Source: a virus. Taken from it: a DNA stretch of 64,000 nt. How positions within the stretch are numbered: the stretch's first letter is position 1; each line of letters begins with the position of its first letter. The position numbers were made by a program, and so were the translations under genes. Location: positions 26,327 through 90,326 of the IMG/VR virus record IMGVR_UViG_3300001533_003062, one strand, 5' to 3'. The notes beneath the pieces were generated by a model, which made no database searches, was not told where the DNA came from, and worked only from the letters and a program-made list of their open reading frames with translations. Positions 12,661 through 51,014 of this stretch are shown piece after piece.

Positions 12661-12662
12661 GA

Positions 12663-35609: not shown

Positions 35610-37946
35610 TTAAACCCCATCCCTTATTCCAAAAGTACTTTTATGTATCCGCTCGATATTATCCTCACCGGTATAGTCATTAACCATTTTAAAAGAAGAT
35701 ACACTCACGGGGCCACCAGATACACCACCCACCGAGAACTGGATCCCTGTATAAGAGGGTTCCCACAGTGTTATGGACTTCTCATAAACGGAACCATTAC
35801 CCCTAACCTTATAATCCATTACAGCGCCTGTAACGCCCATAATGCCCGTCACACCCAAATCCACCAGTACCTCACCAGAAATCTCTGGAGCGGGTATAGT
35901 GTAAGAAATCCCATCTACTTTATGAGATATGCTTACTCCTGATTTTTTATTTATAGAGAACCCATGAGTCCCATTACTCAGCTCTATTTTAAAGTCATTC
36001 ACGGAATCCACTTTAAGGTGCATCCTTAAAGGAAATTCAAAATACTCGTCGTACATAACCGAGCCGCCATCAAAGACTTTTAAACTGTTGAAGTTAAAAT
36101 TAACTTCTCCCGAGGTGGACCACTCTTCCCTTAAAAATTTACTTACTATTTTTCCTCCTCGGTCTACCTCTACTGTTTTAGACACACCTATTAGGTGCAT
36201 ACCTGATGCACCTGTAAATTCAGGATATATACCGGGGAAAACTATTATATTCTCCGCAGAAGATGCAGCAATAGCTCCGTTTATAGTCCGGAAAGGTCCT
36301 GTATAAGAACCATTGTATGTCCCGGTCTCAGACCCTATCATAAAATACCCTGTATCACCCCCATCCGGAGATACATAAACTTTATTGGCAGACAAACTAG
36401 GATACGATGAGTGTATTAAAGCAGTATTATCTAAACCTGACACACCTACATCTACCCTAGAGTAGCCCTTGAAAAGAATATTTCTACTACGGTACCGACC
36501 TATTTCAGGTATACCCACCATACCTGTATAACCCGCAGCAGGATTCAAATTTACGTTTAAATCCTTAGCCTCTAAGAAGGCTCTATCAAGGGTTGCAAAA
36601 GGACCTGTTTCACCTCCTGTACCTATAAAATCGAAACCTCTCTCGTCAATATAGTTAATAAGGTCGCCACTAACGCCCGTTACATACTCAAAAGCACCTA
36701 TATCCGGTGTTACGTAATTTCTTCTAGCGCCTAGTTTATCTTTATTTCTATTAAAGGGCACCGCATTATATACTGTACCTCCCGTTATCCCTAACCAAGC
36801 CTGTGCCCATCTCTCGGGATCTGCGGAATCTATACTAGGAGACCCTGACCTTAGTTTAAAGTCATTACCTGGAATATCCTTGAATAAGGTATCTGCAGAG
36901 ATGTTGCCCGTATCATCAGAGGCCACAGATCCATCGTAATTAGTGGTTACCCCGTAAAAATTATTATATCTTATCTTAACTGGGGTATTTAAGTATACCC
37001 CCAGAGCTATATCAGGGAAGGGAGCTCCTAGACCTGAAAAATTATTCGAGTCTATACTACTGTTGGTATCTATGATATTTTGGGCCCTTATGGCCTCACC
37101 ACTAATCGCAGGAGCACCCTCTGAGTACATCACCCTTAGTACCTCACCCACCTCTAACTGATTTTCTAATATGAGGCCTTCCCATGAAACTATGTACCCG
37201 TTACCTATTACAGTGTAATCATCCCCATAGTAAAAACTGGGACCTGTTGTAACAGAAAGACCTACATCGTACCCGTAGCTATTTTGGGACGCCAAAGAAG
37301 GTAAGGATATCCTCTTATTCTGTATATCGAAAGGAGTTAAAGTATGGTATATTACCCTTAAGCTACTATCTGGAGGCACCGTCGAGGATACCGTCCCAGA
37401 ATCCACTATAGTATTATGATAAACCTCAAGATGGCCTATGGTATTCACATCGATAGATCTGGACCCCCTCGCAAATACATTACCAGATATATTTACGCCC
37501 TTAGCCGTCTCTATTTTAATACCCTCTACAAAACCTATAAAATCACACTGAGCTATCGAAATATAATTAACATCTTTAATATTTATAGGATTATCTATAC
37601 CATCGAAATAACACTCTTTTAGGGATATACTCCCCAACCCTACGCTAGATACCACTACGCCCTCTATGAGAGATGTATCGAAAGTTAAACCCCGGAAAAG
37701 TCCTTGAGAAGTGTTTATAGTCAATTTACCTATAACAGGGTAGGAACCGTAAGCCGCTAAGATACTTATATTTTTAGACACAGTTAAATCACCATAGGAA
37801 GATCCGTCACCCTCTTGTAGGATAATCAGCCCTCCACTAGAGGACCTATCATAAGCCTCCCCCAAGCTTTGAAGAGGCTCTAGGATATTTCCTGAATTTA
37901 AATCATTACCATTTAAATTATCTACGTAGTATATTGCTAATGGCAT
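35610..37946 (-). CDS. Parallel beta-helix protein (fibre/spike-like), GxTG-rich
   Basis: YYVD..GND.NSG...P, VYVSPDG..GPFRTI..AI and DFKLRSGSPSIDS..PDIGAFEY motifs typical of pectin-lyase-like proteins. Confidence 0.7.
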   Translation of the reverse strand: MPLAIYYVDNLNGNDLNSGNILEPLQSLGEAYDRSSSGGLIILQEGDGSSYGDLTVSKNISILAAYGSYPVIGKLTINTSQGLFRGLTFDTSLIEGVVVSSVGLGSISLKECYFDGIDNPINIKDVNYISIAQCDFIGFVEGIKIETAKGVNISGNVFARGSRSIDVNTIGHLEVYHNTIVDSGTVSSTVPPDSSLRVIYHTLTPFDIQNKRISLPSLASQNSYGYDVGLSVTTGPSFYYGDDYTVIGNGYIVSWEGLILENQLEVGEVLRVMYSEGAPAISGEAIRAQNIIDTNSSIDSNNFSGLGAPFPDIALGVYLNTPVKIRYNNFYGVTTNYDGSVASDDTGNISADTLFKDIPGNDFKLRSGSPSIDSADPERWAQAWLGITGGTVYNAVPFNRNKDKLGARRNYVTPDIGAFEYVTGVSGDLINYIDERGFDFIGTGGETGPFATLDRAFLEAKDLNVNLNPAAGYTGMVGIPEIGRYRSRNILFKGYSRVDVGVSGLDNTALIHSSYPSLSANKVYVSPDGGDTGYFMIGSETGTYNGSYTGPFRTINGAIAASSAENIIVFPGIYPEFTGASGMHLIGVSKTVEVDRGGKIVSKFLREEWSTSGEVNFNFNSLKVFDGGSVMYDEYFEFPLRMHLKVDSVNDFKIELSNGTHGFSINKKSGVSISHKVDGISYTIPAPEISGEVLVDLGVTGIMGVTGAVMDYKVRGNGSVYEKSITLWEPSYTGIQFSVGGVSGGPVSVSSFKMVNDYTGEDNIERIHKSTFGIRDGV

Positions 37947-37954
37947 TATTCATC

Positions 37955-38260
37955 CTATTCGTATTCATAAATGACCCGTACTACAGGGCTCTCCGACCCC
38001 ACCCCACTAACTCCTATATCTTGCTCCCTTACCTTCTTTATGGAAGAGTTTTCAAGGTTATACGTAATAAAGCCATAATCTATCCCAGTCAAACCCCAAT
38101 CTATCCCTTCCTTCTGAGCCGGACCGTGGACTGGATCCACTAATACCTTCCACTCACCCTCCAGGCCTGTAATCGGGGGGTACTTCAGCCTAAATAAACC
38201 ATCTCCTGGATTACTTATAGTACCTGTTAATAGGTGATTTTCGAATTCTATAGGCATCAA
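37955..38260 (-). CDS. Small structural protein, paralog of 38261-38563
   Basis: Shared LTGTISNPGDGL..P.HG..Q..G.D.GLTG..Y...TYNLE; similar segment inside 35610-37946. Confidence 0.7.
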   Translation of the reverse strand: MMPIEFENHLLTGTISNPGDGLFRLKYPPITGLEGEWKVLVDPVHGPAQKEGIDWGLTGIDYGFITYNLENSSIKKVREQDIGVSGVGSESPVVRVIYEYE

Positions 38261-38563
38261 TTACTCTCTGTTATATGTAACGCGTATCTCGGGACCAGTA
38301 AAACCTACACCATACTTATCTATATCGTGTAACCTGACACCTTTAATGGCAGAACCCTCTAGGTTATAAGTGAGAATATTGTATTCCGCACCTGTTAAAC
38401 CAAAATCCTGTCCCAATCTTTGGCTTCTGCCATGGATAGGGGTAACCTCTATATCAAAAGTTCCCGCAGGCCCTGTCGTAGGATAACCCCGAAGGGGTAT
38501 AAGACCATCCCCTGGGTTAGATATTGTACCTGTTAGGGTATAGTATTCTACAGCTATTGGCAT
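38261..38563 (-). CDS. Small structural protein, paralog of 37955-38260
   Basis: Tandem duplicate sharing the same motifs. Confidence 0.7.
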   Translation of the reverse strand: MPIAVEYYTLTGTISNPGDGLIPLRGYPTTGPAGTFDIEVTPIHGRSQRLGQDFGLTGAEYNILTYNLEGSAIKGVRLHDIDKYGVGFTGPEIRVTYNRE

Positions 38564-38567
38564 CTAT

Positions 38568-38871
38568 TTATCCTTCTTTTTGTTCTTTTTATTATAGGAT
38601 TTATACCACTCTAACTCTTTTATGTGCTTCGCCTGTTCTTTTAGATAAGTATCTGTACCTGAAAAACCTATATTCTCCTCCACAAAATTATGGCACCTAT
38701 CTCTGTTACCTGATTTTTGTGGTGATCAAGTCATGTAGTTTCTGTATCAAAAAATATAGATGTCTTACCCTTTAAACGATCAAACATCTCTTTAGGGCTG
38801 CCTAAATATTTAGACGCCGCCTCCACCTGATTACCCAGATAACTTAAGACTACTTTAAATCTATCGCCCAA
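38568..38871 (-). pseudogene. Relic of a DEDDh (DnaQ-like) 3'-5' exonuclease
   Basis: TTG at 38871 with GAGAGG RBS; reads SIFFDTETT*LDHHKNQVTEIGAI, with TGA (38731-38733) at the Gly of ExoI DTETTGL; frame breaks soon after. Confidence 0.65.
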
Positions 38872-39012
38872 AATAAACCTCTCGATTTAAGATACAACTA
38901 GTATCAAGTATGTTTTTATTAATAGAAAATTAGTATTAAAAAAGTAGATAGAATAAAGTATATTACTATAGGTGCTTAAAGACCCTTAATAACCATATGA
39001 AACGAGTTGTAC

Positions 39013-41490
39013 ATGCCGAACCGATGGACAAGCCTAGAGGACTCCTTGCTTAAGGAGATATACCCTAATAATAGAAAGTCCTTCATTGAGGAGACACTCA
39101 AAAAAGACTGGACCTGTATCAAAAGGAGAGCACAAAGACTCGGACTAGCGAGAGACCCTGATTTAGTGAATAAGGATAGAGCAGTAAGAAAACAGAGAAA
39201 AGATGCCTGGACCCCTGACCAGGAAAAGTATTTAATTGAGATATTCGAATCTAATACCAAAGAATATATTCTCTCTAAAATAGATAGGCCGTGGAAGGGT
39301 ATCCATGCCCGGGCTAAAAAACTTGGATTGACCCGAGACCTTAAAATAGTTAAAAAAGAGATGATTGAAGGCGGTAAAAAATCATTAGAGACTATGGATG
39401 GTATCTGGTCTGACCAAGAAAACTCAGTACTAAACACCTGTTACAACTGTATGCCCCGGGAAGAGCTCTTGAATAAGTTAAAGGGAAGAACCTGGTCAGC
39501 CATAAGGGCTCAGGCCTTTAAATTAAAGTTGAGACGAGACCCAGACCTCGTAAAAGAAGAGAACGCCATCTACACCAAAAAAGCTATTAATGAAAAGTAC
39601 GGAGTCGATTCTTACTATCAAACAGAGGAGTTTAAGGAGAGGTCCAAAAAAACTAATCAAGAAAAGAGAGGAGCCGACTACCCAACCCAGGACCCCGTAG
39701 TAAAAGATAAGGTAAAGAACGCGGTCTACGAAAAATACGGGGTCGATAATGTATTCCAATCAGAACTTATCAAAGAAAAAATAAAAGACACCAATATGAA
39801 CAAATACGGGGTAGAAAGCCCCCTGCAAAATAAAGAAATACTTAAAAAAGCACGAGATACTAATAAAGAAAAATACGGTGTAGAGAATCCTTTTCAGATG
39901 GTAGACAGAGTTAAAAAAGGTATGCTTGAAAAATACGGTGAAGAAATCCCTCTTCGTGTACCTGAAATTATGGAAAAGAAAATAAGAACAAATATAAGTA
40001 AATATGGATTTGGGACATCTTCTAAGAACCCAGAGGTAAAAGTCAAAATATCTGAGGCTCGCAAAAAACCAGAAGCCAAAAGAAAGGATTACGAGACCCG
40101 TAAAAAGAACAATACTTTTACCGTCTCTAAAGAAGAAATAACTTTCGGTTTATACTTAAAGAATATAGACCCTGATATAAAACACCATCATATCCATCCG
40201 GAACTTGGGCATACAATAGACTTCTTTTCTCCTAAGTATAACATTTGGATCCAATATGATGGGACATACTGGCATAGGGAGGGTAGTAGAACTTATGGCA
40301 TAGATAAGACCCAAAATGATTTAATAAAAAACCTAGTCAGATTTGATTCTGTAGAAGTGTCTGAGCATATCAAAGATAATACAGTAATAAATTTTATTAA
40401 GCACACAATAGAAGATAAGATAAAACAAAATGTAGACCTTATTATGTGCCACCAATACGCCAAGAAATTGGAGCACTATACCGAGGATGTAAAAGGCCTC
40501 GATTTCAATCCTAATAATATAAAAGCCTCAGACATCTCCTATCAGTTAAGCCCCTTGGATAGTAATATAAGATTCTTCATAAAAAAATATGAGTGGCTAG
40601 GAACGATAGGTAATAGCCCTAAATGGTGCTTTACAGCTAAATTTAGAGATATTCTTGTAGGAGTACTTCTTATTAACGAGCCTAACGCTTATTCAAAGAT
40701 GTTAGGCAAGGACACACCCAAGTATGAAGCTCTTATTCAAAGGGGAGCCACTATATCCTGGGCGCCTATAAATACTGGTAGTAAGCTTATTATGTTCGCT
40801 TGTAAATGGATGGTCAATAATACCGACAAAAGATTGTTCGTGGGTTATGCCGACCCGGCTGCCGGTGAGAGAGGCACAATCTATAGGGCATGTAATTTCT
40901 ATTACATAGGGAACAATTTCGGAAACACTCGGGTATACCACCACTCGAGCATGCCCAAGTTATTCACTTACCAAGACCTAAATAGGACAGCTTCTTTTAA
41001 AAGATGGTGCAAAGATAATCATATAGAACCTGAAAAAGAGTGGTTCAAAGAGAACGGATTCAAAGATATTTATAAGATACCTCAGGAGATCAGAACTAAG
41101 TGGACGCTATGGAAAAAAAATCTGATAAATAATTCGGATACTATAGAGTTAGCGCCTAAGATGAAGTTTGCACTTATTCTAGGTAAAAATAAAAGAGAGC
41201 TTAAGTTTTTAATGTCCTTAAAAAACTTTGAGGTAAAAAAATTTCCTAATAATCGTAGTACCAGCGGTTCCGTTTGTACACCTAAAAGTATATCCGTTAA
41301 AAACAAGGCAAAAATCAACCATGGAAAGACATCAGATAGAAAAAATCCCGAAAAAATTAAATTTATAACAGAAAACCACGGAAAAATGAGCCGAGAGGAC
41401 CTCTCGAAATATCTTAAAGAAACCCCGAGATGGGTTAAGAGACAGATAGCAAACCTTATAAAGGTCGGGGCTATCACCCCTAAAAAGTAA
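39013..41490 (+). CDS. Homing-endonuclease-like protein fused to a Mom-like GNAT domain
   Basis: Three W(T/S)..(E/Q)...L...Y/F Myb-like repeats, multiple KYGV repeats, IDFFSPKYNIWIQYDGTYWH (Vsr/PD-(D/E)xK-like), then GYADPAAGERGTIYRACNFYYIG (Mom-like); antisense to neighbours. Confidence 0.7.
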   Translation: MPNRWTSLEDSLLKEIYPNNRKSFIEETLKKDWTCIKRRAQRLGLARDPDLVNKDRAVRKQRKDAWTPDQEKYLIEIFESNTKEYILSKIDRPWKGIHARAKKLGLTRDLKIVKKEMIEGGKKSLETMDGIWSDQENSVLNTCYNCMPREELLNKLKGRTWSAIRAQAFKLKLRRDPDLVKEENAIYTKKAINEKYGVDSYYQTEEFKERSKKTNQEKRGADYPTQDPVVKDKVKNAVYEKYGVDNVFQSELIKEKIKDTNMNKYGVESPLQNKEILKKARDTNKEKYGVENPFQMVDRVKKGMLEKYGEEIPLRVPEIMEKKIRTNISKYGFGTSSKNPEVKVKISEARKKPEAKRKDYETRKKNNTFTVSKEEITFGLYLKNIDPDIKHHHIHPELGHTIDFFSPKYNIWIQYDGTYWHREGSRTYGIDKTQNDLIKNLVRFDSVEVSEHIKDNTVINFIKHTIEDKIKQNVDLIMCHQYAKKLEHYTEDVKGLDFNPNNIKASDISYQLSPLDSNIRFFIKKYEWLGTIGNSPKWCFTAKFRDILVGVLLINEPNAYSKMLGKDTPKYEALIQRGATISWAPINTGSKLIMFACKWMVNNTDKRLFVGYADPAAGERGTIYRACNFYYIGNNFGNTRVYHHSSMPKLFTYQDLNRTASFKRWCKDNHIEPEKEWFKENGFKDIYKIPQEIRTKWTLWKKNLINNSDTIELAPKMKFALILGKNKRELKFLMSLKNFEVKKFPNNRSTSGSVCTPKSISVKNKAKINHGKTSDRKNPEKIKFITENHGKMSREDLSKYLKETPRWVKRQIANLIKVGAITPKK

Positions 41491-41491
41491 A

Positions 41492-42382
41492 TTACATAGA
41501 GCCCGCTCCGCTCACATAGTTTCTTCTGGACTGTATCCCTGACCTTGAGAAAGGCCCTAAAGCAGATTGCAGACCTATTCCGTACCTCGGCTGCTGAAGC
41601 CCCTTTATTATCTTTATGGATCTCTTAGCAAGTTCAAGTCCCTTCTCAAACTCTCCCCAGAAGTTATTCTTCATTGCCTCATATTTAGAGGATTTCTCTA
41701 TGCTAAGACTTACCCCCGATACGCTGTAGTCAAACTCGTCAGCGATCCAGTTCATAGCAAGCGCAGCACATGCATACCCTGCTGCACGCATCAGGATGAG
41801 CGTAGACCATCTAGTGGGCATACTCTTGATAGTTACACCGGTTACTGGAGGCGCCATATTAAACGAGTCTATACCCATCAGTATATACTCATAGAGTTCT
41901 TCATCTTCCCAGATGTAGCCAAATACCTGTGTCTGGTTCTGGATAAAATTTTCTGTTGATGGAGGTCTAAACCGGTAATTCCTGTCCGGATTATTGTCTC
42001 TTAGCATGATCCTGAGTCTTCTTATTAGCCCATCCTCAAAGTCGTTACCTGTTATAGAAACGACCATATCTTCTCCAACTATATTAAACTCTTGGACTAC
42101 CTCTATGAGAGGGGATGTGGGAGATTCTCTGAAGTTCCACCGTACCAACCAATCTCCGATGTTTGCGTCAAGTGGTATAGTAGAGTTCACGTGGTACTGG
42201 CCGACGCCAGTAGTCGAAGGTATTCTATCCTGATCTCCTATAAGTACCTGTATACCTGTTGTATTATCAAATAGAGAATAAACTATGTAGTAGGGATCTG
42301 TAGGCGTACCCGCCGAATCCCTTATTACGATCTTAAGATCGTTCTCTGTTAGAATCTGCCCTTTTTTATAAGCTACGCCCAT
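41492..42382 (-). CDS. Head-tail adaptor / neck protein
   Basis: N-terminal Ig-like segment then RLRIMLRD..WEDEEL..FDYSVSGVSLSIEKS. Confidence 0.55.
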   Translation of the reverse strand: MGVAYKKGQILTENDLKIVIRDSAGTPTDPYYIVYSLFDNTTGIQVLIGDQDRIPSTTGVGQYHVNSTIPLDANIGDWLVRWNFRESPTSPLIEVVQEFNIVGEDMVVSITGNDFEDGLIRRLRIMLRDNNPDRNYRFRPPSTENFIQNQTQVFGYIWEDEELYEYILMGIDSFNMAPPVTGVTIKSMPTRWSTLILMRAAGYACAALAMNWIADEFDYSVSGVSLSIEKSSKYEAMKNNFWGEFEKGLELAKRSIKIIKGLQQPRYGIGLQSALGPFSRSGIQSRRNYVSGAGSM

Positions 42383-42461
42383 AATGCTTCCTTAATAGGA
42401 TTAATCAATACCCGTATTCTTTTTATGGCGTACTTATTAGAAGATAATTATAGATAAGATA

Positions 42462-43313
42462 CTAAATAAGGGGTTTTAGTATCTTATCTATTTCTTGCCT
42501 TTTAGTCTGTATCTTAATCTTAGACTCCGAAATCTCTTCTTCAGTTTCTCTTCTATCAGAGCTATCCATAGATGACCGGTTTATCTCCATATAATTCTTT
42601 AGGGAAGAAAGAGACTCAACCAGCCCGACAAGCTCGTCTTGTGCCCCTTTAAGATTTTTTAGTAAGTCAGCATCAACCGACGCCGCCTTCTCCCAAGGTG
42701 CTTTAGACTTAAGTATAGATCCCTCATCAAAGTCTTTCTCCCATCTATCTAGCATGCCTTGGAGGGCCTGAAGAGGGACTCCGTGAGTATTCTTACCACT
42801 GAGCTCTTTTACATCAAATTTCCAGGGTGTATCTGCTTCTTCTACAGCTATATTATAACCATACTTTTTAGCCTCAGACACATAGGGCCTAGCCTCCCAT
42901 TTCTGGACATTAGTATTATCTACTATAATGGGGCTTATTCCTGAGGCCATAGAGTCAAAAGCTCGACTCTGATTCCACTCATGTGCGGCCACAATCATAG
43001 GTTTTCCATCTTTTCCTTTTTCACCGCCACGGAATACCATCTTACCGTTTTCATCCTTACTATATAGACCGGGATAATCGTCCGTAGAAAAAACCTCTCC
43101 ACCTAATTCGCTGTGTAGCTTTTTAGCCTTGGTACTCTTACCACTACCTGGTAGACCCCTCATGATAATCAAAGTTTTATCAGAACCTTCTTTAGCCGCG
43201 ATAACTTCCAAAGTATTGGAAATCTTATCTAATTCAGATGCCTCTCTAATTAGTCCCTTAGATTCTAAAGACTCCGCTACCTCATCTAACATGGAAGAAA
43301 TCTTACTGTACAT
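42462..43313 (-). CDS. P-loop polynucleotide-kinase-like protein (N4BP2/AAA_33 type) with shared N-terminal leader
   Basis: IIMRGLPGSGKST, STDDY, AHEWNQ, IVDNTN, KNTHGVP. Confidence 0.85.
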   Translation of the reverse strand: MYSKISSMLDEVAESLESKGLIREASELDKISNTLEVIAAKEGSDKTLIIMRGLPGSGKSTKAKKLHSELGGEVFSTDDYPGLYSKDENGKMVFRGGEKGKDGKPMIVAAHEWNQSRAFDSMASGISPIIVDNTNVQKWEARPYVSEAKKYGYNIAVEEADTPWKFDVKELSGKNTHGVPLQALQGMLDRWEKDFDEGSILKSKAPWEKAASVDADLLKNLKGAQDELVGLVESLSSLKNYMEINRSSMDSSDRRETEEEISESKIKIQTKRQEIDKILKPLI

Positions 43314-43342
43314 TTACGTATACCCCTTTAAACATTATTATT

Positions 43343-43756: not shown

Positions 43757-43785
43757 TAAATATCACCATTCTTTGTGAAAAAAAA

Positions 43786-44379
43786 TTAAGGCTTTACACT
43801 GCCTATAACTTCAGGACCTAATAATTTATCTGTGCCGTGAATTAGCTTTCTAGCCTTGTCGTCCTCATTGACTTTCTTCTTTATCTCTTTCAAGGCTTCG
43901 TCATGGTCTTTACCCTTGAAAAATAAGCGTGAAAGCTGTTCACTTAGGTAATTATTTTTAGGTAGAATCTCGTCCACCCCATAATCCTGAGCCATATAAG
44001 CTATTATGGCGAGGTCCTGTCTATCACCTCTATTTATGAACGCGTTTACTATTTTTGGCGTAAAATAGGACACGACGTTACTCTTGTCGTTCTCTTCATT
44101 CGCCTTTAATAGCTCTATAACGTATAGATCATTAGACCCTATAAGTTCCAAGAGCTCCTGTTCCGACGCCACATTTTTAAGGACACCACCATTATCCTTT
44201 ATATAATCTGAGAGGCCGTTCTCTTCTAATACATCCTCCAGAACCTTTATATTGGTGTTACTACCTGCGTATTTATCTAGCGTATTAGCTACGACGTCTA
44301 ATTGTCTAGCTTCTCTGATTAAGCCCTTATCCTCCAATGATTGAGCTACCTTATCTATTAAGGTAGAGATATTATCCAT
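43786..44379 (-). CDS. Hypothetical protein with shared N-terminal leader
   Basis: Likely start MDNISTLIDKVAQSLEDKGLIREARQLD at 44379, just after the upstream stop. Confidence 0.7.
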   Translation of the reverse strand: MDNISTLIDKVAQSLEDKGLIREARQLDVVANTLDKYAGSNTNIKVLEDVLEENGLSDYIKDNGGVLKNVASEQELLELIGSNDLYVIELLKANEENDKSNVVSYFTPKIVNAFINRGDRQDLAIIAYMAQDYGVDEILPKNNYLSEQLSRLFFKGKDHDEALKEIKKKVNEDDKARKLIHGTDKLLGPEVIGSVKP

Positions 44380-44380
44380 A

Positions 44381-44860
44381 TTAACTGTCTCCCTCTTCAA
44401 CATTCAGTACTAATTCCAATGTAAAATGAATCTCATTATTTTCTTCATCTATTTCTGGGTGGTAGTCCACCTGTTCTTCCCATATATAATCATCAAAGTC
44501 TTCTTCTAAATCCGAGGTGTCTATGTCCGGATACTCTTTATTTAAAAAGGGTATCAGCTTAGGATTAATGATTTTCTTTATTGAATCCTCGTTATCATCT
44601 ACCCAATCCATTATCATGGAGTTTAGAACTCTATAACTTTGAGGAGCATCTCCACTAAATTTTAATTTAAGCTCACACACTATATCAAACATATCCGCGT
44701 CAAATACAACAGTGCTTTTATCGGAAGTACTATTAGTTACTTGGATAGAGCTTGTTATATCCGCCCTACCTATATCATTGAATCCTATAAATTCAACGTC
44801 CTTAAGAGTAAATTTTTTTGATGCTATCTTTTTAAAGATCTGAATCTCAGTAGTTCTCAT
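44381..44860 (-). CDS. Acidic hypothetical protein
   Basis: 159 aa, operonic spacing. Confidence 0.6.
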   Translation of the reverse strand: MRTTEIQIFKKIASKKFTLKDVEFIGFNDIGRADITSSIQVTNSTSDKSTVVFDADMFDIVCELKLKFSGDAPQSYRVLNSMIMDWVDDNEDSIKKIINPKLIPFLNKEYPDIDTSDLEEDFDDYIWEEQVDYHPEIDEENNEIHFTLELVLNVEEGDS

Positions 44861-44866
44861 AACTAT

Positions 44867-45166
44867 TTAAAATCCGTGCTTTTTATTATTGAAACTTCCA
44901 GTAAATCCCTGAATACCCGTGATACCTTGTTCAAAACCTACGAAGGTAACGTCGTACCCGATGTACTTTCCTGTTATTCCCGCAAAAGTTTGTAAGTCCT
45001 TGTAGGTATCTAAATCTTTGACACCTGTATAAGTATAATTTTCAGGAGGGTTTCCCATTTCTTCGAATATTCCGGTAGCTCCGTATACTTCGTTAGTATT
45101 AACAATCTTATACGCCCCGATAGCGGGGGAGATACCATTGAATGTCCAACCTTTTGACTTAGCCAC
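44867..45166 (-). CDS. Small GxTG-rich protein
   Basis: GATG, GITG, GITG, GFTG in 99 aa. Confidence 0.65.
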   Translation of the reverse strand: MAKSKGWTFNGISPAIGAYKIVNTNEVYGATGIFEEMGNPPENYTYTGVKDLDTYKDLQTFAGITGKYIGYDVTFVGFEQGITGIQGFTGSFNNKKHGF

Positions 45167-45168
45167 TA

Positions 45169-45456
45169 TTAGCCTCTTTTGATCTCATTATTAACTATGC
45201 TTGCACATAAACTCTTCAGCGATTTAACATTATCTGCGTACGTAAGGGCATCTATCTTAGCCTGCCTCAAATAATAATCCGCCTTGAGCTTTTCTACAAT
45301 AGCGTTCTCTTCGAAATAGAAGAATACCCTTCTGTCATCCCTACTCGTCTTTTTTATATTACATCCCGCAGATGATAAAAAAGCAGCTAAATAAAGATCA
45401 CACGTCTTGTAGCCGTCTTCTGTTAGTATTAAATCTCCGTGTATTCTATCACCCAT
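45169..45456 (-). CDS. DUF5659-like small phage protein
   Basis: YKTCDLYLAAFL..G....RVFFYF pattern recalled for this family. Confidence 0.55.
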   Translation of the reverse strand: MGDRIHGDLILTEDGYKTCDLYLAAFLSSAGCNIKKTSRDDRRVFFYFEENAIVEKLKADYYLRQAKIDALTYADNVKSLKSLCASIVNNEIKRG

Positions 45457-45534
45457 AATTTATCCTATCTATATTATACCATATATATCTTATGTGAGAG
45501 TTACCATGAGGTAACTCTCACAAATAAAGACAAT

Positions 45535-45951
45535 TTAGACATTACCGTAGTAATAACCTGTTGCACCGGCTATGCCTGTAGGTGCGTACTTATCGTTAGC
45601 AAGGCGTGTCATGTACTCATCTGTAAATCTACCTGTGTCACCTGTGACGTCACGAAGAGGAACCTCATCACTTGATGTAAAAATTCCTGAAGTAACAGTG
45701 ATAGGGGCTCCTGTAGGAAATACAGCTGAATCGTCGGTACTGTAATACTTGAGGATACCTGAAGCAAGACTCATAAGAACATCACCTGTTTTCTGAAGAA
45801 CTACTGTTTCACCCCAGATAATGTATTGATCCTGTCCTCCGTTATAGTTACCTTCCTGAGCACCGCCGAGACCGAGTCTCTTTTCGATGTCTGAGAGATA
45901 AATTTTACCCACATTAGTTCCATTATACTGGATTTTAATCTGGTCACTCAT
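45535..45951 (-). CDS. Hypothetical virion protein with TG-rich C-terminus
   Basis: Likely start MSDQIK at 45951 with AGGAGG; VTGDTG and PTGIAGATG. Confidence 0.7.
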   Translation of the reverse strand: MSDQIKIQYNGTNVGKIYLSDIEKRLGLGGAQEGNYNGGQDQYIIWGETVVLQKTGDVLMSLASGILKYYSTDDSAVFPTGAPITVTSGIFTSSDEVPLRDVTGDTGRFTDEYMTRLANDKYAPTGIAGATGYYYGNV

Positions 45952-46052
45952 ATCGTGCCTCCTTAAAAAACACATTCGTTATAATTTATATTAAACGGCT
46001 TAAATAAGCCTGTACAACTATTATAGTTATATTAAAAGATAATTACAAAATG

Positions 46053-46085
46053 AAAAAGGCCCTAAACTTAATTCAGGGCCTTTTT
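46053..46085. terminator. Intrinsic terminator, possibly bidirectional
   Basis: AAAAAGGCCCT...AGGGCCTTTTT. Confidence 0.75.
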
Positions 46086-46109
46086 AGTCTGTATATTATA
46101 AATATAATA

Positions 46110-46229
46110 TTAATCTTTATCACCGGACCACGGGTTTAGGCGCTCTATTTCTTCTACCTTTTTCTTTAAACCCTTAGACTCGAGGCTCCCAGCTACTTTA
46201 TCTAACATTGATGCGATCTTATCGTACAC
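46110..46229 (-). CDS. 39-aa peptide consisting mostly of the shared leader
   Basis: GTG with GGAGG 6 nt upstream; MYDKIASMLDKVAGSLESKGLKKKVEEIERLNPWSGDKD; below the ORF-track cutoff. Confidence 0.6.
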   Translation of the reverse strand: MYDKIASMLDKVAGSLESKGLKKKVEEIERLNPWSGDKD

Positions 46230-46286
46230 CTAAATCCTCCTCTAACAAATATAATAGTGCTGTCTTAATAGTATATCATTAAAATA

Positions 46287-49200
46287 TTATACCTTATAAT
46301 GTATAAACCAGTTTGATGGGACACCTGTATCAGGATATTCCACATACTCAAGTCTAAAACCTTCTTTACCTCCCCAAAAAGACTTAATTAGCTCCTCCGT
46401 GGGAGTCCACAAGTGTTGCTTGTTCTCTTTATGGTCTTGATCAGGCAGAGATATTAAAATACCTTTAGTGGCTATCTTCTCCATCTTATCTATGTATACC
46501 GGTATGGAGTCTAAAGGCACGTGCTCTAGAGTCTCAAAACACAGCACGGCATCAAAAATATCTGAAATAGAAACCTCATCAAAAGCCCCTTTATGTACCT
46601 TATATTTCTTATTATTCTTTACAGCATATCTCTCAGCTGATAAGGCTAGGCCCTCTATGAATTCTACACCCTCTACATCGTAGCCCTTGTCGATAAGAAG
46701 AAAGTCCAACCAGCCATCATAAGAGCCTACATCCAGTACTTTTTCCGCACCTAAGTCCTCTAGGACCTCTAAAGCCTTTGTAAAGTGCTTATTATCTCTC
46801 TTATTACCTATGTGAGCCTCAGGTACAGGTAGATAACTTTCAGGGATTGTAACCTCGTGATTAGCCCTTATTTCCTCTTTAGTACTTACAGGAAATTCTA
46901 GCCCAAACTGCCTCATCCAGCCTTCAGCAATATTATCCCAAGAATACTCTAGCATCTTATTATAAGCTTTCTCGGACCATTCTTTAGTAAGCTCTTCGTC
47001 CTTAAGGAGCTTAATAGCAGCTTCTATAAAAGATTTTTGATATTCTTCTGAGTGGCTATCTCCATCAATAAGCATGCCTGAGCTACCTACTGTAGTCGTA
47101 AGGCCTGCAAAGTTAGAAGAAAGAATAGCGTTTTTAGCTAAACCGTTCTCCACCGCAGATATACAAAAACTCTCAGAGAACCACGTGGGATAGAGCCACC
47201 ACTTAGATTCCATCTGGTACCTAGCAAGTACGTCCTTCGATACTCTATCTACGTACTCTACTCCAGGCTGTTCCATCGATTTCTTTATTTCTTGGATAAA
47301 AGCCATACCCTTTTCGTCGCCTCTAGCTTTTACGGCTGACTCCCAGTTGTAGAACCCATAAGCTACTATGAGCTTAAGATCCGGACAAGCCTCCCTAAGC
47401 TTAGGGAACATCATCAGAAGCTCATATAAACCTCTATCAGGGCTAGAACTATAAACAATCTGGTTCTTCTTCTCAACCTTATCTACATCTTTATAAAGAT
47501 CAAAGTTAACCCCGTTTGCTGTGAGGAACATCTTATCTTCCGGCATATTGTGGTGCTGTTTTAAGAAATCTTTGTGCCACTCAGAAAGATAGCCGTAACC
47601 ATCTGTTTTCCATGCTAATATATCGTAATTCTTATCATGATTCAACCATATGTCATGTATCATGACATAACGCCTCATAGCGTGTATACTGTGCTTAAAA
47701 GGTTCTACGGTACGGGAACTTATAAAGTAATCTATTGCCTCGCACTTAAGATCTTCTAGCATGTGCGCATGGTGCCTATATGCTACGTACCCCTTACCCA
47801 CACCCAGGGTCTCTCTGTATAAAGACTTATCTACATCATACTCCTCTTTAAGGTATACGCCTCTATCTTTCTCAGGCAAGTCGTTATAGATAATTACACC
47901 GTACCCTCTCCTGGCAAAAGCAATAGCTAAATAAACCGCCCAGGTCTCTGAACCTGCCATACCTTTATCTACCTTCTCCTTGTCCCAAGGCTCCCATGCG
48001 GGTCCCGTATAAATTACTATTTTTTTGTATTCCCATTTTTTGTGGTATATAAGATGATTTAACTTGTCCTCTTTAGCATATTCTTCCCTATCTTCTACCT
48101 CATAAGCACCCCTGCTGATCCCTCCGAAATGATATACAAAAGAGTCTATTGCCTGACCTATCCTATAGCCAAAAGAGGTCAACCTTCTACACAGATCCAA
48201 ATCTTCGCAACCGTTTTTGTAGTTGGTATCAAACAAACCCACCTCGTTTATAGCGCTCCGTGCAAAAACTGTGGCATATGCCGCCACCCATTGCTGCTCA
48301 ACGAATTTGCCTGATAAGCTCTTATTAGAATCATCCATAAAATCGTAGAGTTCATCTATATAGGGTTTTACCTGATCCATTTTCATCCCAGGTACTAACT
48401 CTAATCCACTCTTATTTAGCCTCATATTATATGAAGGCTTACCAGGAATGCCGTGTAACCAACCTCTATCGCAGTTAGAAAGTACACCACAAGCTGCCAA
48501 CCTACTTTCTGTATCCATTTTTTTAACAATATTCTCTAACCAGCCTTTGGAAACTACCATATCCGAATTCAAGATAGCAAAGTACTTCGAATTAGAAGCA
48601 GCTATACCCGCATTACAAGCCTCTGAAAAATTAAGGCGTTTATCAGGACTACCTAGAATAGTCATACCTTTTAGAGTCTTTAGATATTCCCAGGTCTCTT
48701 CGTTGCTTCCTGCATCCGATATTATGATTTGGAAAGGATATATAGTCTTCAAAAGTATAGAGCTTACAAACAATTTTAGGTACTCTACGTTATTATAGTT
48801 CGTTATGATAAGATCTACAGGTTCTTTAAAATTACTGTCCACACTTACATCCTCTAAAATCTTAGACCTCTTTTCAACTAATAGCCCTTTAAACAAATCC
48901 GTGTACTTACTCAACATAGCATCAGAGGTATATGCCGACGCCGTGATATAAGCATTCTCCCCTATATTCTTTCTAGTCTTAGAGTCTTTTAATTTTTTTA
49001 ATACCTCGGTCCATTCCTCTATCTTATCACAGATGAAACCGTTAACCCCGTGCATCACTGTTTCTTTATAAGAGGGTAAGGGGGAGCATATTACGGGCAT
49101 ACCTAAAGCCATAGCTACTGAAGCTTTTACGTTACTCTTTGCGGGCTGCACGTCCACCCTTTGAGGGCATAGTACGACATCACAGCTCCTCATATCATCA

Positions 49201-51014
49201 GACCAAGTATTTAGATCCCATTTTATATCCGCATCCTCCCACTCGGTTATAACTACTAATTCATAACCCGCCTCTTCTATCGCTGGTTTCAAATGCTCTT
49301 TTACTAAAAAACTATTCCCACCCATTCCCATGTAGAGTGCTTTAGGTTTCTCATACCGGTCACCATATTCTTCCTCAGGCCTCTTTTCATAGAACTCTAC
49401 GATATCAGAGATTACATCAGTATTAGAGAAACCTTTCTCATTTACCATATCAGATAACTTAGTAGAGCAACAGATAATTTTATCTGCTTCTCGCATACAA
49501 TCTAAAATACTAGGGTGGTCGAAAACAGCTTCACATTTATCTAATAAGATTTTCTTGCCTGATGCTTTAAAGTCTCGTATCAATTCTAATTCTAAATCTC
49601 CAGAATTTACAAAGACTACTATGTTAGCGTCTCCTACCGCATTTATAGTATTTTTAAAACCTAACATATGGTAATCAGATATTATCTTACTTTTCACTCC
49701 CCGGTCTCTCAATAAAGCATCGACATTGAGCCTTCGTATACGTGTAGCGGGGTCATTATAATTTTTAGCGGGGACTAGCCATGCCACCTCTAACTCCCTT
49801 TTACGGTAGAGGTGCACCTCTGCATGATCCCCTGTATTAGACTCAAGAAGCATATCGTATCCTTCTGAGTCTAATATCTCAACCAATTTATCCAAATCTT
49901 TTATAGTGGGTTCTTTATCCCTCACAGATATTTCTAGCTCTGACCTCTTTTTAACTTCCTGCATCTGAGCGTGATCGGGTTTATCTTTTAACGCTATAGA
50001 AGAATACTTAAGTGATTTATCATAATCTTTCTTATTCATATAAATAAGCGCTAGGTTAGCCGCAGGAAGAAAAGAATAGAAATCCACTAACTGAGACATT
50101 CCCGCGTCCATCTTTTTCCCTAGAGCATCCTGATAGTACTTTACGGCTATTTCCTCCTGGCCTTGTCTTTGAGCTATATCCCCCAATACTACAAAATTTT
50201 CAGCATAAGACGAGTTAAATTTAATGCCCTTCATGGCGTAGGTCTTAGACTTGTCAATATCGCCCTCTGAGAAGTAATACCTAGAGACTTTTATAGAGGC
50301 TACCGCCAGATTATCCTTATATCCTTCACCCTTATCCAAGTATTTCTCCAACACCTCTAAGCCTCTCTCCCAATCTCCTGTATCTATAAGCTCTTTCCCG
50401 TAATAGAATTGGGTCCTAGGGGATGGGTCCGGTTTTTCATACTGATCTTTCAATAAGCTAAGATTCCTATCAGGGTCAAAAGGCTTAACACGATAGTGGT
50501 GTATTTTCGCGCCCTCTAATTTATAGATATTTTGAGAGGTATCCATATTGAGATATTCATGTATAGGATCATGCCAAGATATATGATCACAGTTCTTAAC
50601 GATGCGTTCTCTAGGAAGGACTACTATGGGGTTGTCGTCGTCATCATGAGCATAGATATAATCCATTAAAACCATATCGTACTTATATAAATCTTTTTTC
50701 AGATCCAATATCTTCTGATAATCTTCTGGTTTTACAACATCATCAGCATCTAGCCACATTATATGTTTACCGCGTGCTTGGCTAAAATTGTAATTACGAG
50801 CTTTCCCAAAATCTCGACACCACTCAAAATAAGAAACATTATCAGTGAATTCCTCAGCAACCTTTCTTACCTCACTATCTCCAGACGTAACAGTGATAGC
50901 TATGTCGTCGAATAAATTACCTTGGATACTCTCAAGGCACCGTCTCAATTCCTTAGATTCTCCAGGACCCACTATTATACAAAGGGAAAGATCCCTATCT
51001 AAAACTTTTTCCAT
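46287..51014 (-). CDS. Multidomain glycosyltransferase: GT2-TPR-GT4-GT2-GT4-SAM methyltransferase
   Basis: DFGKARN..WLDADD (GT2), TPR helices, KSNVK..ALGMPVI..HGVNGF (GT-B), IITNYN..LNSD..EDLDL (GT2), GSE..YSSSPDRGL..ESFCISAVE (GT4), VLDVGSYDG..ETLEH (MTase). Confidence 0.9.
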   Translation of the reverse strand: MEKVLDRDLSLCIIVGPGESKELRRCLESIQGNLFDDIAITVTSGDSEVRKVAEEFTDNVSYFEWCRDFGKARNYNFSQARGKHIMWLDADDVVKPEDYQKILDLKKDLYKYDMVLMDYIYAHDDDDNPIVVLPRERIVKNCDHISWHDPIHEYLNMDTSQNIYKLEGAKIHHYRVKPFDPDRNLSLLKDQYEKPDPSPRTQFYYGKELIDTGDWERGLEVLEKYLDKGEGYKDNLAVASIKVSRYYFSEGDIDKSKTYAMKGIKFNSSYAENFVVLGDIAQRQGQEEIAVKYYQDALGKKMDAGMSQLVDFYSFLPAANLALIYMNKKDYDKSLKYSSIALKDKPDHAQMQEVKKRSELEISVRDKEPTIKDLDKLVEILDSEGYDMLLESNTGDHAEVHLYRKRELEVAWLVPAKNYNDPATRIRRLNVDALLRDRGVKSKIISDYHMLGFKNTINAVGDANIVVFVNSGDLELELIRDFKASGKKILLDKCEAVFDHPSILDCMREADKIICCSTKLSDMVNEKGFSNTDVISDIVEFYEKRPEEEYGDRYEKPKALYMGMGGNSFLVKEHLKPAIEEAGYELVVITEWEDADIKWDLNTWSDDMRSCDVVLCPQRVDVQPAKSNVKASVAMALGMPVICSPLPSYKETVMHGVNGFICDKIEEWTEVLKKLKDSKTRKNIGENAYITASAYTSDAMLSKYTDLFKGLLVEKRSKILEDVSVDSNFKEPVDLIITNYNNVEYLKLFVSSILLKTIYPFQIIISDAGSNEETWEYLKTLKGMTILGSPDKRLNFSEACNAGIAASNSKYFAILNSDMVVSKGWLENIVKKMDTESRLAACGVLSNCDRGWLHGIPGKPSYNMRLNKSGLELVPGMKMDQVKPYIDELYDFMDDSNKSLSGKFVEQQWVAAYATVFARSAINEVGLFDTNYKNGCEDLDLCRRLTSFGYRIGQAIDSFVYHFGGISRGAYEVEDREEYAKEDKLNHLIYHKKWEYKKIVIYTGPAWEPWDKEKVDKGMAGSETWAVYLAIAFARRGYGVIIYNDLPEKDRGVYLKEEYDVDKSLYRETLGVGKGYVAYRHHAHMLEDLKCEAIDYFISSRTVEPFKHSIHAMRRYVMIHDIWLNHDKNYDILAWKTDGYGYLSEWHKDFLKQHHNMPEDKMFLTANGVNFDLYKDVDKVEKKNQIVYSSSPDRGLYELLMMFPKLREACPDLKLIVAYGFYNWESAVKARGDEKGMAFIQEIKKSMEQPGVEYVDRVSKDVLARYQMESKWWLYPTWFSESFCISAVENGLAKNAILSSNFAGLTTTVGSSGMLIDGDSHSEEYQKSFIEAAIKLLKDEELTKEWSEKAYNKMLEYSWDNIAEGWMRQFGLEFPVSTKEEIRANHEVTIPESYLPVPEAHIGNKRDNKHFTKALEVLEDLGAEKVLDVGSYDGWLDFLLIDKGYDVEGVEFIEGLALSAERYAVKNNKKYKVHKGAFDEVSISDIFDAVLCFETLEHVPLDSIPVYIDKMEKIATKGILISLPDQDHKENKQHLWTPTEELIKSFWGGKEGFRLEYVEYPDTGVPSNWFIHYKV

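What the first reader, a model, noticed from the sequence alone, without database searches (positions are those of the whole stretch)
35610..51014. Candidate phage virion O-glycosylation system: assembly-line glycosyltransferase plus GxTG-tagged structural proteins
Seen: a 1575-aa protein chains GT2-TPR, GT4, GT2, GT4 and a terminal methyltransferase, and nearby genes are rich in G-x-T-G. Examples: 44867-45166 (GATG, GITG, GITG, GFTG in 99 aa), 45535-45951 (GDTG, GATG), 37955 and 38261 (GLTG, GLTG, GFTG), the beta-helix protein (GITG, GETG, GYTG, GDTG, GVTGIMGVTG plus many xTG) and the giant ORF (GFTG three times, GATG). Known: GT2-TPR enzymes glycosylate proteins, e.g. Clostridioides difficile SgtA acting on GxT collagen-like BclA3, and virion glycosylation is described in mycobacteriophages. 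Inference: GT2-TPR primes Thr in isolated GxTG sequons scattered in globular proteins, the next three GTs extend the chain and the methyltransferase caps it.
Basis: partly seen in the sequence, partly recalled or inferred. Interest (0 to 1): 0.82.

Follow-up and report, generated by a model that had tools for sequence, protein, structure and literature searches.

The report
Huge-phage enzyme for sugar-coating virion proteins
A fragment of a very large uncultured phage encodes one long enzyme with four sugar-adding parts and a methyl-adding part; its first part belongs to the bacterial family that puts sugars on Gly-x-Thr collagen-like spore proteins, and the short word Gly-x-Thr-Gly is strongly over-represented in a few neighbouring phage proteins, so the phage probably sugar-coats some of its own particle proteins, though no chemistry has been done.

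Summary
Observation confirmed. The 1575-aa protein (46287-51014, minus strand) has the stated domains: GT2-TPR, GT4, GT2, GT4, methyltransferase. GxTG is the most over-represented of 5430 gapped three-residue patterns in the window's 47 proteins: 23 seen, 6.9 expected; 0 of 2000 shuffles reach 23. The excess sits in five proteins (15 vs 1.5). The other 42 are at expectation, so the giant ORF is weak evidence.

Interpretation partly supported, unproven. Residues 1-365 match, over their full length, a family of ~358-aa GT2-TPR proteins of spore-forming Firmicutes. That is the size and layout of C. difficile SgtA (PMC7157674, passages). 54 of 80 such bacterial loci hold a collagen-like ORF, with Thr at 72% of Y positions. 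9 of 16 related phage loci carry collagen-like proteins beside the enzyme.

Against: about 10 of the 23 motifs lie in mini-collagen runs. One relative has the enzyme but no motif in its large neck-protein homologue. No enzyme-less relative with these proteins was found. The methyltransferase fusion is unique among 102 homologues.

The scan had already reported the same enzyme and motif on other DNA. My paper searches found nothing in print.

The parts
46287..51014 (-). 1575-aa multi-domain glycosyltransferase (P0001). By residue: 1-365 SgtA/GmaR-like GT2 + TPR; ~400-715 GT-B (GT4-like); ~718-990 GT2; ~995-1370 GT4; ~1410-1575 SAM methyltransferase.
   Evidence: Pfam. PDB matches: GmaR and SunS for residues 9-234, chondroitin synthase for 718-848. 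About 100 homologue clusters. Catalytic motifs are invariant in 19 sequences (WLDADD 87-92, NSD 816-818, ED..D 937-940, E1281). No hydrophobic segment reaches 1.6 on the Kyte-Doolittle scale, so it is probably soluble.
49920..51014 (-). Priming module (residues 1-365): GT2 catalytic domain followed directly by TPR repeats.
   Evidence: Full-length homologues of 355-385 aa, 30-35% identical, 93-98% coverage, E 1e-38 to 1e-53, from Eubacterium, Clostridium, Paenibacillus and Christensenellales. 54 of 80 bacterial loci of this family have a collagen-like ORF within 6 kb.
46290..46787 (-). C-terminal methyltransferase domain, fused only in this phage.
   Evidence: Pfam Methyltransf_23/25/11. No BLAST match (E 1e-3) in the related loci or in the 101 other GT homologues.
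46053..46085 (-). Strong terminator-like hairpin (15-bp stem) between the glycosyltransferase unit and the next gene.
   Evidence: sequence read. It follows a ~39-codon ORF (about 46112-46229) that has a good ribosome-binding site.
45535..45951 (-). 138-aa protein (start at the internal ATG, by alignment). It has two conserved GxTG sites in its C-terminal half and is always found with the enzyme.
   Evidence: 14 of 14 homologues carry 1-4 GxTG, with variable x. 13 of 13 viral contigs with this protein also hold the enzyme. No Pfam or PHROG hit. The fold prediction was poor (pLDDT 48).
44867..45166 (-). 99-aa protein with four GxTG. It is a member of a small conserved family of ~65-85 aa that ends in ...NFTNxKHGF.
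   Evidence: 4 seen vs 0.28 expected. The positional equivalents in relatives carry 1-4 GxTG in 16 of 20 distinct frames. The 4 without belong to a subgroup where the gap holds no such gene.
38261..38563 (-). 100-aa protein, paralogue of the next gene; 2 GxTG.
   Evidence: 6 homologues carry 2-3 GxTG; 2 distant ones carry none. In L123 the homologue has 5.
37955..38260 (-). 101-aa paralogue; 1 GxTG.
35610..37946 (-). 778-aa all-beta protein of the neck region with six GxTG and probably a ConA-like lectin/glucanase domain.
   Evidence: 6 seen vs 0.70 expected. Model pLDDT 78. 5 of 6 motif threonines are in coil. Foldseek hits are legume lectins and beta-glucanases. In 25 family representatives I summed 128 GxTG vs 19.6 expected and 26 GxSG vs 24.1 expected from the rows.
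41492..42382 (-). Context: homologue of the head-tail connector protein.
   Evidence: tblastn match to Tunturi_5 gp319, annotated 'head-tail connector protein' (29%, 90% coverage), and to phage G gp165.
34168..35607 (-). Context: neck or 'minor tail protein' homologue; 1 GxTG.
   Evidence: tblastn match to Tunturi_5 gp322 and phage G gp175. Weak PHROG 'virion structural protein' hits.
24913..27903 (-). Context: tail sheath (996 aa); 2 GxTG vs 0.64 expected, not significant.
   Evidence: PHROG 2839 tail sheath, E 3.4e-24.
2..9955 (-). Giant ORF (3565 aa in the full record); weak excess only.
   Evidence: 4 vs 1.01 in the window part (p 0.016); 5 vs 1.16 for the whole ORF.

Best explanation
The window is part of a ~0.47-Mb phage related to Bacillus phage G. 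Its neck and late-gene region encodes a soluble single-polypeptide glycan assembly line.

Proposed steps, all inferred:
1. The N-terminal GT2-TPR module, a relative of SgtA of C. difficile and GmaR of Listeria, puts the first sugar on the threonine of G-x-T(-G) stretches of phage proteins in the cytoplasm before or during assembly. By analogy this sugar is a HexNAc.
2. The GT-B, GT2 and GT4 domains each add further sugars.
3. In this phage only, the fused methyltransferase methylates the product.

Proposed acceptors:
- the short collagen-like fibre proteins encoded elsewhere in the record;
- three small protein families next to the enzyme (45535, 44867, 38261/37955);
- the 778-aa neck-region protein.

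Shown here: the domains, the homology, the gene linkage and the motif excess.
Inferred: the acceptor, the sugars, the order of steps and that these proteins are in the virion.
For: 1. Architecture and intact catalytic motifs in all four GT domains across 19 aligned homologues.
2. The closest solved relatives of residues 9-234 are two protein or peptide glycosyltransferases, GmaR and SunS.
3. Residues 1-365 align end to end with ~358-aa Firmicute GT2-TPR proteins. SgtA is 358 aa (GT-A 1-260, TPR 262-358), lies directly upstream of bclA3, and adds beta-O-GlcNAc to Thr of short collagen-repeat peptides in vitro (PMC7157674, passages).
4. 54 of 80 bacterial loci of that family carry a collagen-like ORF within 6 kb, with Thr at 4512 of 6265 Y positions.
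5. 9 of 16 non-redundant phage loci with the four-domain enzyme carry collagen-like ORFs within 10 kb. Pfam Collagen is above threshold in 5 of the 6 proteins tested, from 6 of the 9 loci, and Thr is at 38% of Y positions. 0 of 5 comparison loci without the enzyme (189 kb) carry one.
6. The window's own record has three proteins with GxT-rich collagen segments.
7. GxTG ranks first of 5430 patterns in the window, and first to third in 14 of 17 related loci.
8. In homologues the G, T and G are kept while x varies, and sites come and go in insertions and tails. GxSG and GTxG show no excess.
9. The enzyme lies among structural genes on the same strand. It is conserved in ~100 clusters on contigs up to 466 kb.
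10. It carries inteins in two catalytic motifs, which fits a gene under strong constraint.
11. Two relatives lacking the enzyme by tblastn show no excess: LR745208.1, 19 vs 12.3; Tunturi_5, 6 vs 8.2.
Against: - No glycan, mass shift or expression data exist.
- SgtA itself was not compared, because I held no sequence of it.
- The two enzyme-less relatives also lack the motif-bearing protein families, so they are a weak control.
- L123 has the full enzyme, yet its homologue of the 778-aa protein has 0 GxTG. 3 of 25 family representatives have none.
- A terminator separates the enzyme from the first putative substrate gene.
- About 10 of 23 motifs lie in runs of two to four G-X-Y triplets (my reading). 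Part of the excess may therefore be structural mini-collagen.
- 5 of 6 motif threonines in coil is not significant against a 50% coil background.
- That the small proteins are virion components is not shown: there are no family hits and the Atlas scores are at chance level.
- A podovirus with a distant homologue next to its capsid gene shows no GxTG excess (8 vs 7.5).
Confidence: 0.5

Rival explanations
1. The enzyme glycosylates only the long collagen-like fibres, as SgtA does with BclA3. The GxTG words in the small proteins and the 778-aa protein are there for another reason: relics of collagen-like sequence, short trimerisation segments, or docking sites for the TPR domain.
For: Every tested or linked precedent involves collagen repeats. 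About 10 of 23 motifs are in in-phase triplet runs. The motif count in the 778-aa family varies from 0 to 12 regardless of the enzyme.
Against: 13 of 23 motifs are not in triplet runs. Single sites such as D-[IL]-G-x-T-G are kept across homologues only 37% identical. SgtA accepts short linear peptides. The window itself has no long collagen gene, and the 45535 family travels with the enzyme in 13 of 13 contigs.
Confidence: 0.22
2. The enzyme builds or alters a non-protein glycan, such as host envelope polysaccharide, lipopolysaccharide or teichoic acid, during infection. The GxTG excess is an unrelated structural feature of these protein families.
For: GT2 and GT4 domains with a terminal methyltransferase also occur in polysaccharide pathways (recalled, not tested). 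The NCBIfam hits are all far below cut-off and include polysaccharide enzymes. Phage glycosyltransferases are often assigned to host serotype change (PMC12619734, passage).
Against: The head module is closest to protein and peptide glycosyltransferases, and its family is linked to G-x-T collagen genes. The same linkage holds in the phages. No membrane segment is present. The gene lies in the structural region.
Confidence: 0.15
3. The enzyme glycosylates modified bases of the phage DNA.
For: Phage DNA hypermodification by glycosyltransferases is known (cited in PMC12619734; PMC13326640, search listing only). A Mom-like DNA-modification domain lies 5 kb away.
Against: The TPR-bearing SgtA/GmaR-like head, the collagen linkage and the late structural position all point to protein. 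No base-modification genes were seen next to it.
Confidence: 0.03

Closest known systems
SgtA-BclA3 of Clostridioides difficile (exosporium collagen-like glycoprotein and its O-GlcNAc transferase; PMC7157674, passages read)
   Same: A GT-A/GT2 domain is followed directly by TPR repeats, ~360 aa in all. The acceptor is Thr in G-x-T repeats. Short linear peptides are enough in vitro. The enzyme gene lies next to collagen-like genes. The phage module aligns over its full length with ~358-aa Firmicute proteins of this layout, and those are linked to Thr-rich collagen genes in 54 of 80 loci.
   Different: Here the module is the head of a 1575-aa fusion with three more GT domains and a methyltransferase. 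It is encoded by a huge phage. The nearby candidate acceptors are mostly short or single G-x-T-G sites in non-collagen proteins. Phage collagens alternate Gln (44%) and Thr (38%) at Y, against 72% Thr in the bacterial ones. SgtA's own sequence was not compared.
GmaR of Listeria monocytogenes (flagellin O-GlcNAc transferase) and SunS of SPbeta (peptide S-glycosyltransferase)
   Same: These are the best solved-structure matches to residues 9-175 and 10-234 (E 1.3e-17 and 4.8e-11). Both act on protein or peptide acceptors; their function is recalled, not tested here.
   Different: Their acceptors differ: flagellin Ser/Thr, and a Cys of sublancin. They are not fused to extending transferases.
Chlorovirus PBCV-1 A064R (PMC9614988, passages read)
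   Same: A virus-encoded single polypeptide with two glycosyltransferase domains and a terminal methyltransferase. It finishes the glycan of the virus's own capsid protein, and the methyl group goes on the terminal sugar.
   Different: A064R extends an N-linked glycan of a eukaryotic virus, has 638 aa and unrelated GT domains, and does not prime the protein. No sequence relation was found or sought here.
Mycobacteriophage virion glycosylation (Freeman et al. 2023; paper not held; known here only from a citing passage in PMC12619734)
   Same: Phage-encoded glycosyltransferases modify the phage's own structural proteins.
   Different: There the glycans sit on C-termini of the capsid and tail-tube subunits. 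Separate small GT genes are used, and no G-x-T-G word or collagen link is mentioned in the passage I saw.

Membership tests
SgtA-like GT2-TPR protein O-glycosyltransferases | N-terminal GT-A (GT2) domain with a DxD motif | tested here: met
   Pfam PF00535/PF13641/PF10111 over residues 18-106. WLDADD at 87-92 is invariant in the phage family and in the alignment with 15 bacterial homologues.
SgtA-like GT2-TPR protein O-glycosyltransferases | TPR repeats directly after the catalytic domain; ~360 aa in all | tested here: met
   TPR families over residues 186-362. Homologues of 355-385 aa cover 93-98% of residues 1-365. SgtA is given as 358 aa, GT 1-260, TPR 262-358 (PMC7157674).
SgtA-like GT2-TPR protein O-glycosyltransferases | Gene linked to collagen-like (G-x-T)n protein genes | tested here: met
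   Bacterial family: 54 of 80 loci. Phage family: 9 of 16 loci. In this window no long collagen gene is adjacent; three short ones lie 50-60 kb away in the same record.
SgtA-like GT2-TPR protein O-glycosyltransferases | Direct sequence similarity to C. difficile SgtA itself | not tested
C. difficile was not among the best 80 of the 582 confirmed stretches kept.
SgtA-like GT2-TPR protein O-glycosyltransferases | Transfers a sugar to Thr of G-x-T peptides | not testable with these tools
   Needs an enzyme assay or mass spectrometry.
Phage virion glycosylation systems | Glycosyltransferase encoded in the structural or late gene region | tested here: met
   Same strand as, and between, head-region and neck genes. 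Neighbours match a head-tail connector, a 'minor tail protein' and the sheath.
Phage virion glycosylation systems | Glycan present on virion proteins | not testable with these tools
   The phage is uncultured and no proteomic data exist.
Collagen-like (Pfam PF01391) acceptor proteins | Long runs of G-X-Y triplets | tested here: not met
   The window proteins have at most four in-phase triplets. Runs of 11-14 triplets occur only in three proteins outside the window.

The most novel reading that the evidence does not exclude
G-x-T-G is a true minimal O-glycosylation sequon of a widespread clade of huge phages. One soluble polypeptide primes the threonine and builds a defined oligosaccharide on it, methyl-capped in this phage. 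The phages gain and lose sequons in loops, tails and fibres of selected virion proteins, much as eukaryotic viruses shift N-glycan sites, to tune adsorption, stability or evasion of host recognition.
Probability: 0.33. Interest if true: 0.8.

Novelty: new variant of a known kind. Interest (0 to 1): 0.62.

Why it matters
If true, phage protein glycosylation would have a readable sequence code (G-x-T-G) and a single, clonable enzyme that makes the whole glycan. The claim could then be tested in E. coli without culturing the phage. It would extend virion glycosylation from actinobacteriophages to a large clade of huge environmental phages: about 100 homologue clusters, on contigs up to 466 kb. 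It would also tie that process to the spore-coat collagen glycosylation of Firmicutes. A soluble enzyme that primes and extends a glycan on a four-residue tag could also be a useful tool for glyco-engineering.

Tried and rejected
Searches that led nowhere:
- PHROG and Pfam gave nothing for the small motif proteins.
- AlphaFold2 on the 45535 family (12 sequences) gave pLDDT 48, so the motifs could not be mapped.
- The Atlas look-alikes scored 0.81 or lower, which is chance level.
- megablast of the region against the phage collection found no match. tblastn with the enzyme found only partial, distant hits of 30% identity or less.
- NCBIfam hits were all far below their cut-offs.

DNA-word explanation. 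Rejected, because the codons vary.

'Whole-virion tag'. Rejected, because the 42 proteins outside the five flagged ones are at expectation.

The control with enzyme-less relatives.
- All 13 of 13 viral contigs with the 45535 family hold the enzyme.
- Two motif-free homologues of the 778-aa protein (P0229, P0234) were not found in the viral collection.
- Among 23 metagenome loci, the enzyme was seen in each of the 5 whose upstream flank reached it (L123, L131, L132, L141, L143). It lay outside the fetched DNA in the others.
- The control therefore remains undone.

A distant podovirus homologue showed no motif excess. The motif is therefore not a universal mark of phage GT2-TPR enzymes.

Methyltransferase. 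No separate homologue of this domain lies near the enzyme in relatives.

Literature. Searches found no paper that describes a phage SgtA-like enzyme with collagen-like or GxTG-bearing virion proteins. Subscription journals and supplementary files were not searched or seen and may hold relevant data. Freeman et al. 2023 could not be read.

Rows dropped before counts:
- L003 and L004 (same as L002), L016 (like L013) and L019 (like L010).
- L022 (distant, GT4 match only) was kept and used as a comparison locus.
Full report
WHAT THE WINDOW IS

The 64-kb window is bases 26327-90326 of a 90-kb viral record that CheckV rates 19% complete, so the genome is probably near 0.47 Mb. Almost all genes lie on the minus strand.

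PHROG recognises a 996-aa tail sheath at 24913-27903. tblastn links 41492-42382 to the 'head-tail connector protein' gp319 of Tunturiibacter phage Tunturi_5 and to gp165 of Bacillus phage G. It links 34168-35607 to the Tunturi_5 'minor tail protein' gp322 and to phage G gp175.

The finding therefore lies in the neck and late structural region of a huge phage distantly related to phage G. No close cultured relative exists in the phage collection.

THE OBSERVATION

The ORF 46287-51014(-) gives a 1575-aa protein. Pfam places GT2 (18-106), TPR (186-362), a GT-B C-terminal domain (608-689), GT2 (735-859), GT4 (1021-1172 and on) and a SAM methyltransferase (1421-1533) on it.

- Per-protein shuffles give 6 vs 0.70 for 35610-37946 and 4 vs 0.28 for 44867-45166. 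Both are reached by 0 of 2000 shuffles. The 45535, 38261 and 37955 proteins show smaller excesses, and the giant ORF shows 4 vs 1.0.
GxTG ranks first of the 5430 patterns seen (23 vs 6.88, Poisson 1e-6). GxSG, AxTG, GxTA, GxTS and SxTG are near expectation.
- Pooled shuffles: 23 vs 6.8 for all 47 proteins (0 of 2000); 15 vs 1.54 for the five flagged proteins (0 of 2000); 8 vs 5.2 for the other 42 (317 of 2000).
- The excess is real but narrow. It is not a general property of the virion genes, and the giant ORF adds little.
- The codons for the three fixed residues vary, so this is a protein-level signal.

THE ENZYME FAMILY

About 100 clusters of homologues exist. Most are ~1375 aa and lack the methyltransferase. 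They lie on contigs up to 466 kb. In a 19-sequence alignment the catalytic motifs of all four transferase domains are invariant.

Ten homologues with Pfam intein domains were compared with the window protein. Eight carry a ~375-440-aa insertion exactly at residue 1284, inside the ESF|C motif of the last GT4 domain. Two carry a ~390-aa insertion at residue ~88, inside WLD|ADD.

The methyltransferase domain has no BLAST match in the related loci or in the 101 other homologues. The 'cap' is thus a peculiarity of this phage. No segment of the protein reaches a membrane-helix hydropathy score.

WHAT THE HEAD MODULE IS

Against all solved structures, the best match to residues 9-175 is GmaR (E 1.3e-17), followed by SunS for residues 10-234 (E 4.8e-11). 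From recall, these are a flagellin O-GlcNAc transferase and a peptide S-glycosyltransferase.

A search for shorter proteins with residues 1-365 found 236 hits. After the phage fragments, they are almost all 355-385 aa, 30-35% identical, and cover 93-98% of the query. Where named, they come from Eubacterium, Clostridium, Christensenellales and Paenibacillus.

The paper on C. difficile SgtA (PMC7157674, passages) describes a 358-aa protein with a GT-A domain (1-260) and TPR repeats (262-358). It is encoded directly upstream of bclA3. It adds beta-O-GlcNAc to threonines of short synthetic peptides taken from the collagen repeat region, and it also accepts Ser peptides.

I then fetched 80 genome loci of this bacterial family. 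They are the best 80 of 582 confirmed stretches, and all are from Bacillota, mostly spore-forming genera. 54 of the 80 hold a collagen-like ORF within 6 kb, often immediately adjacent. Thr occupies 4512 of 6265 Y positions. I had no random-locus control for Firmicutes, but the immediate adjacency is itself telling.

I could not compare SgtA itself.

THE PHAGE RELATIVES

Gene order around the enzyme is conserved: enzyme, 45535 family, DUF5659 protein, 44867 family, 44381, 43343, connector, 38261 family, 778-aa protein, 34168.

- GxTG ranks first to third of all patterns in 14 of 17 non-redundant loci. The exceptions are L006, L007 (downstream flank truncated) and the distant L022.
- 9 of 16 loci carry collagen-like ORFs within 10 kb of the enzyme. 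Some are 541-3261 aa long with 42-180 GxTG. Pfam Collagen is above its cut-off in 5 of the 6 I tested. In these proteins Gln (44%) and Thr (38%) share the Y position.
- None of five comparison loci without the four-domain enzyme (189 kb in all) has a collagen-like ORF.
- The window's own record has three proteins with 11-14 GxT/GxQ triplets, 50-60 kb from the enzyme.
- All 14 homologues of the 45535 protein carry GxTG, at two aligned sites with variable x. All 13 viral contigs that hold this family also hold the enzyme.
- The small 44867 family carries 1-4 GxTG in 16 of 20 distinct frames. The other four belong to a subgroup without the gene.
- In the 778-aa family some sites are aligned and others appear in insertions and C-terminal tails. 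Over 25 representatives I sum 128 GxTG against 19.6 expected, 26 GxSG against 24.1 expected, and 15 GTxG (from the rows).

EVIDENCE AGAINST, AND LIMITS

- Three of those 25 representatives have no motif. L123 has a full-length enzyme but no motif in its 778-aa homologue, although its small neighbours have 3, 3 and 5. This protein is thus at best an optional acceptor.
- The two relatives that lack the enzyme by tblastn show no excess: LR745208.1 at 19 vs 12.3 and Tunturi_5 at 6 vs 8.2. But they also lack the motif-bearing families, and Tunturi_5 has two other annotated glycosyltransferases.
- I found no relative that keeps these families without the enzyme.
- By my reading, 10 of the 23 window motifs sit in in-phase runs of two to four G-X-Y triplets (for example GITGIQGFTG and GVTGIMGVTG). 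Part of the signal could be structural.
- The model of the 778-aa protein (pLDDT 78) puts 5 of 6 motif threonines in coil. Half the chain is coil and 29 of all 46 threonines are in coil, so this is only compatible, not significant. Its Foldseek matches are ConA-like lectins and glucanases. I could not confirm the beta-helix.
- A strong terminator lies between the enzyme and the 45535 gene.
- A podovirus with a 28%-identical homologue beside its capsid gene shows no motif excess.

READING

The most likely account is a phage-encoded protein O-glycosylation line whose head module recognises G-x-T(-G). I put this at about one half. I am more confident that the enzyme is a protein glycosyltransferase tied to G-x-T proteins than that every isolated GxTG is a used site. 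The main rival keeps the enzyme on collagen fibres only. A polysaccharide or DNA target is less likely, given the head module's relatives and gene linkage.

NOVELTY

Glycosylation of G-x-T collagen-like proteins by SgtA-type enzymes is known in bacteria. Virion glycosylation is known in mycobacteriophages, which I know only through a citing passage. It is also known in chloroviruses, where A064R joins two GT domains to a methyltransferase (PMC9614988, passages). My four literature searches found no description of this four-domain phage enzyme or of a GxTG word in phage proteins.

Within this scan the same enzyme family and motif have already been reported on other DNA, with the same closest-known system. 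I read those notes only after my own tests. They agree with my result but are not independent evidence. I class the finding as a new variant of a known kind.

Noticed in passing
homologues P0029, P0032, P0033, P0036, P0066, P0086, P0087, P0089 (residue 1284) and P0085, P0097 (residue ~88); loci L002, L009, L015, L019-L021: Inteins (Pfam Intein_splicing, LAGLIDADG_3, Hint_2) are inserted in the glycosyltransferase at two catalytic motifs: ESF|C of the last GT4 domain (8 of 10 examined) and WLD|ADD of the first GT2 domain (2 of 10). The window's copy has no intein.
   Followed up: partly
window 46290-46787 (-): The C-terminal methyltransferase domain has no BLAST match in any of the 101 other homologues or in the related loci. 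Three homologues (P0056, P0064, P0066) carry a Pfam methyltransferase that is not similar to it.
   Followed up: partly
window about 46112-46229 (-), then 46053-46085: A ~39-codon ORF with a good ribosome-binding site follows the glycosyltransferase. Its start resembles the N-terminus of the 43786-44403 protein (the 'shared leader' of another note). It is followed by a 15-bp-stem terminator.
   Followed up: no
L005 (= L141 contig) 10001-14104: In this relative the glycosyltransferase gene keeps its place between the same neighbours but lies on the opposite strand from them. In L021 the upstream neighbours are rearranged.
   Followed up: no
L137 3600-5952; L026 29704-32078: The head-tail connector homologue is split into two pieces, 1.0-1.4 kb apart, in two relatives. 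This suggests an inserted element (intron or homing-endonuclease gene).
   Followed up: no
window 39007-41490 (+): This is the only large plus-strand gene in the region. It gives PHROG hits to homing endonucleases and to a Mom-like DNA-modification protein. It sits between the connector gene and the 38261 gene, is present in some relatives and absent in others.
   Followed up: no
window 32206-33306 (-): An IS200/IS605-type transposase gene (PHROG 506, E 7e-114) lies inside the neck module. Homologues occur at other places in L015 and L020.
   Followed up: no
window 35610-37946 (-), probably the C-terminal ~190 residues: The fold search of the 778-aa protein returns legume lectins and beta-1,3-1,4-glucanases (ConA-like jelly roll). 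This suggests a sugar-binding or sugar-cutting head on a neck-region protein.
   Followed up: partly
P0099 (Microbulbifer sp. DLAB2-AA, 4.85-Mb contig): A chromosomal 1274-aa bacterial protein is 53% identical to the phage enzyme over 41% of its length. It could be a prophage remnant, a gene transfer or a hint to the host.
   Followed up: no
L041 (MW202524.1) 3147-11978: A 42.6-kb podovirus has, right after its major capsid gene, a block of three or four glycosyltransferase genes and two methyltransferase genes. It shows no GxTG excess.
   Followed up: partly
G000 7450-8430, 8458-9108, 12485-13573 (outside the window, before its start): Three proteins have 11-14 collagen-like triplets rich in GxT and GxQ, with 5, 5 and 6 GxTG. 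They lie in the presumed fibre region downstream of the giant ORF.
   Followed up: partly
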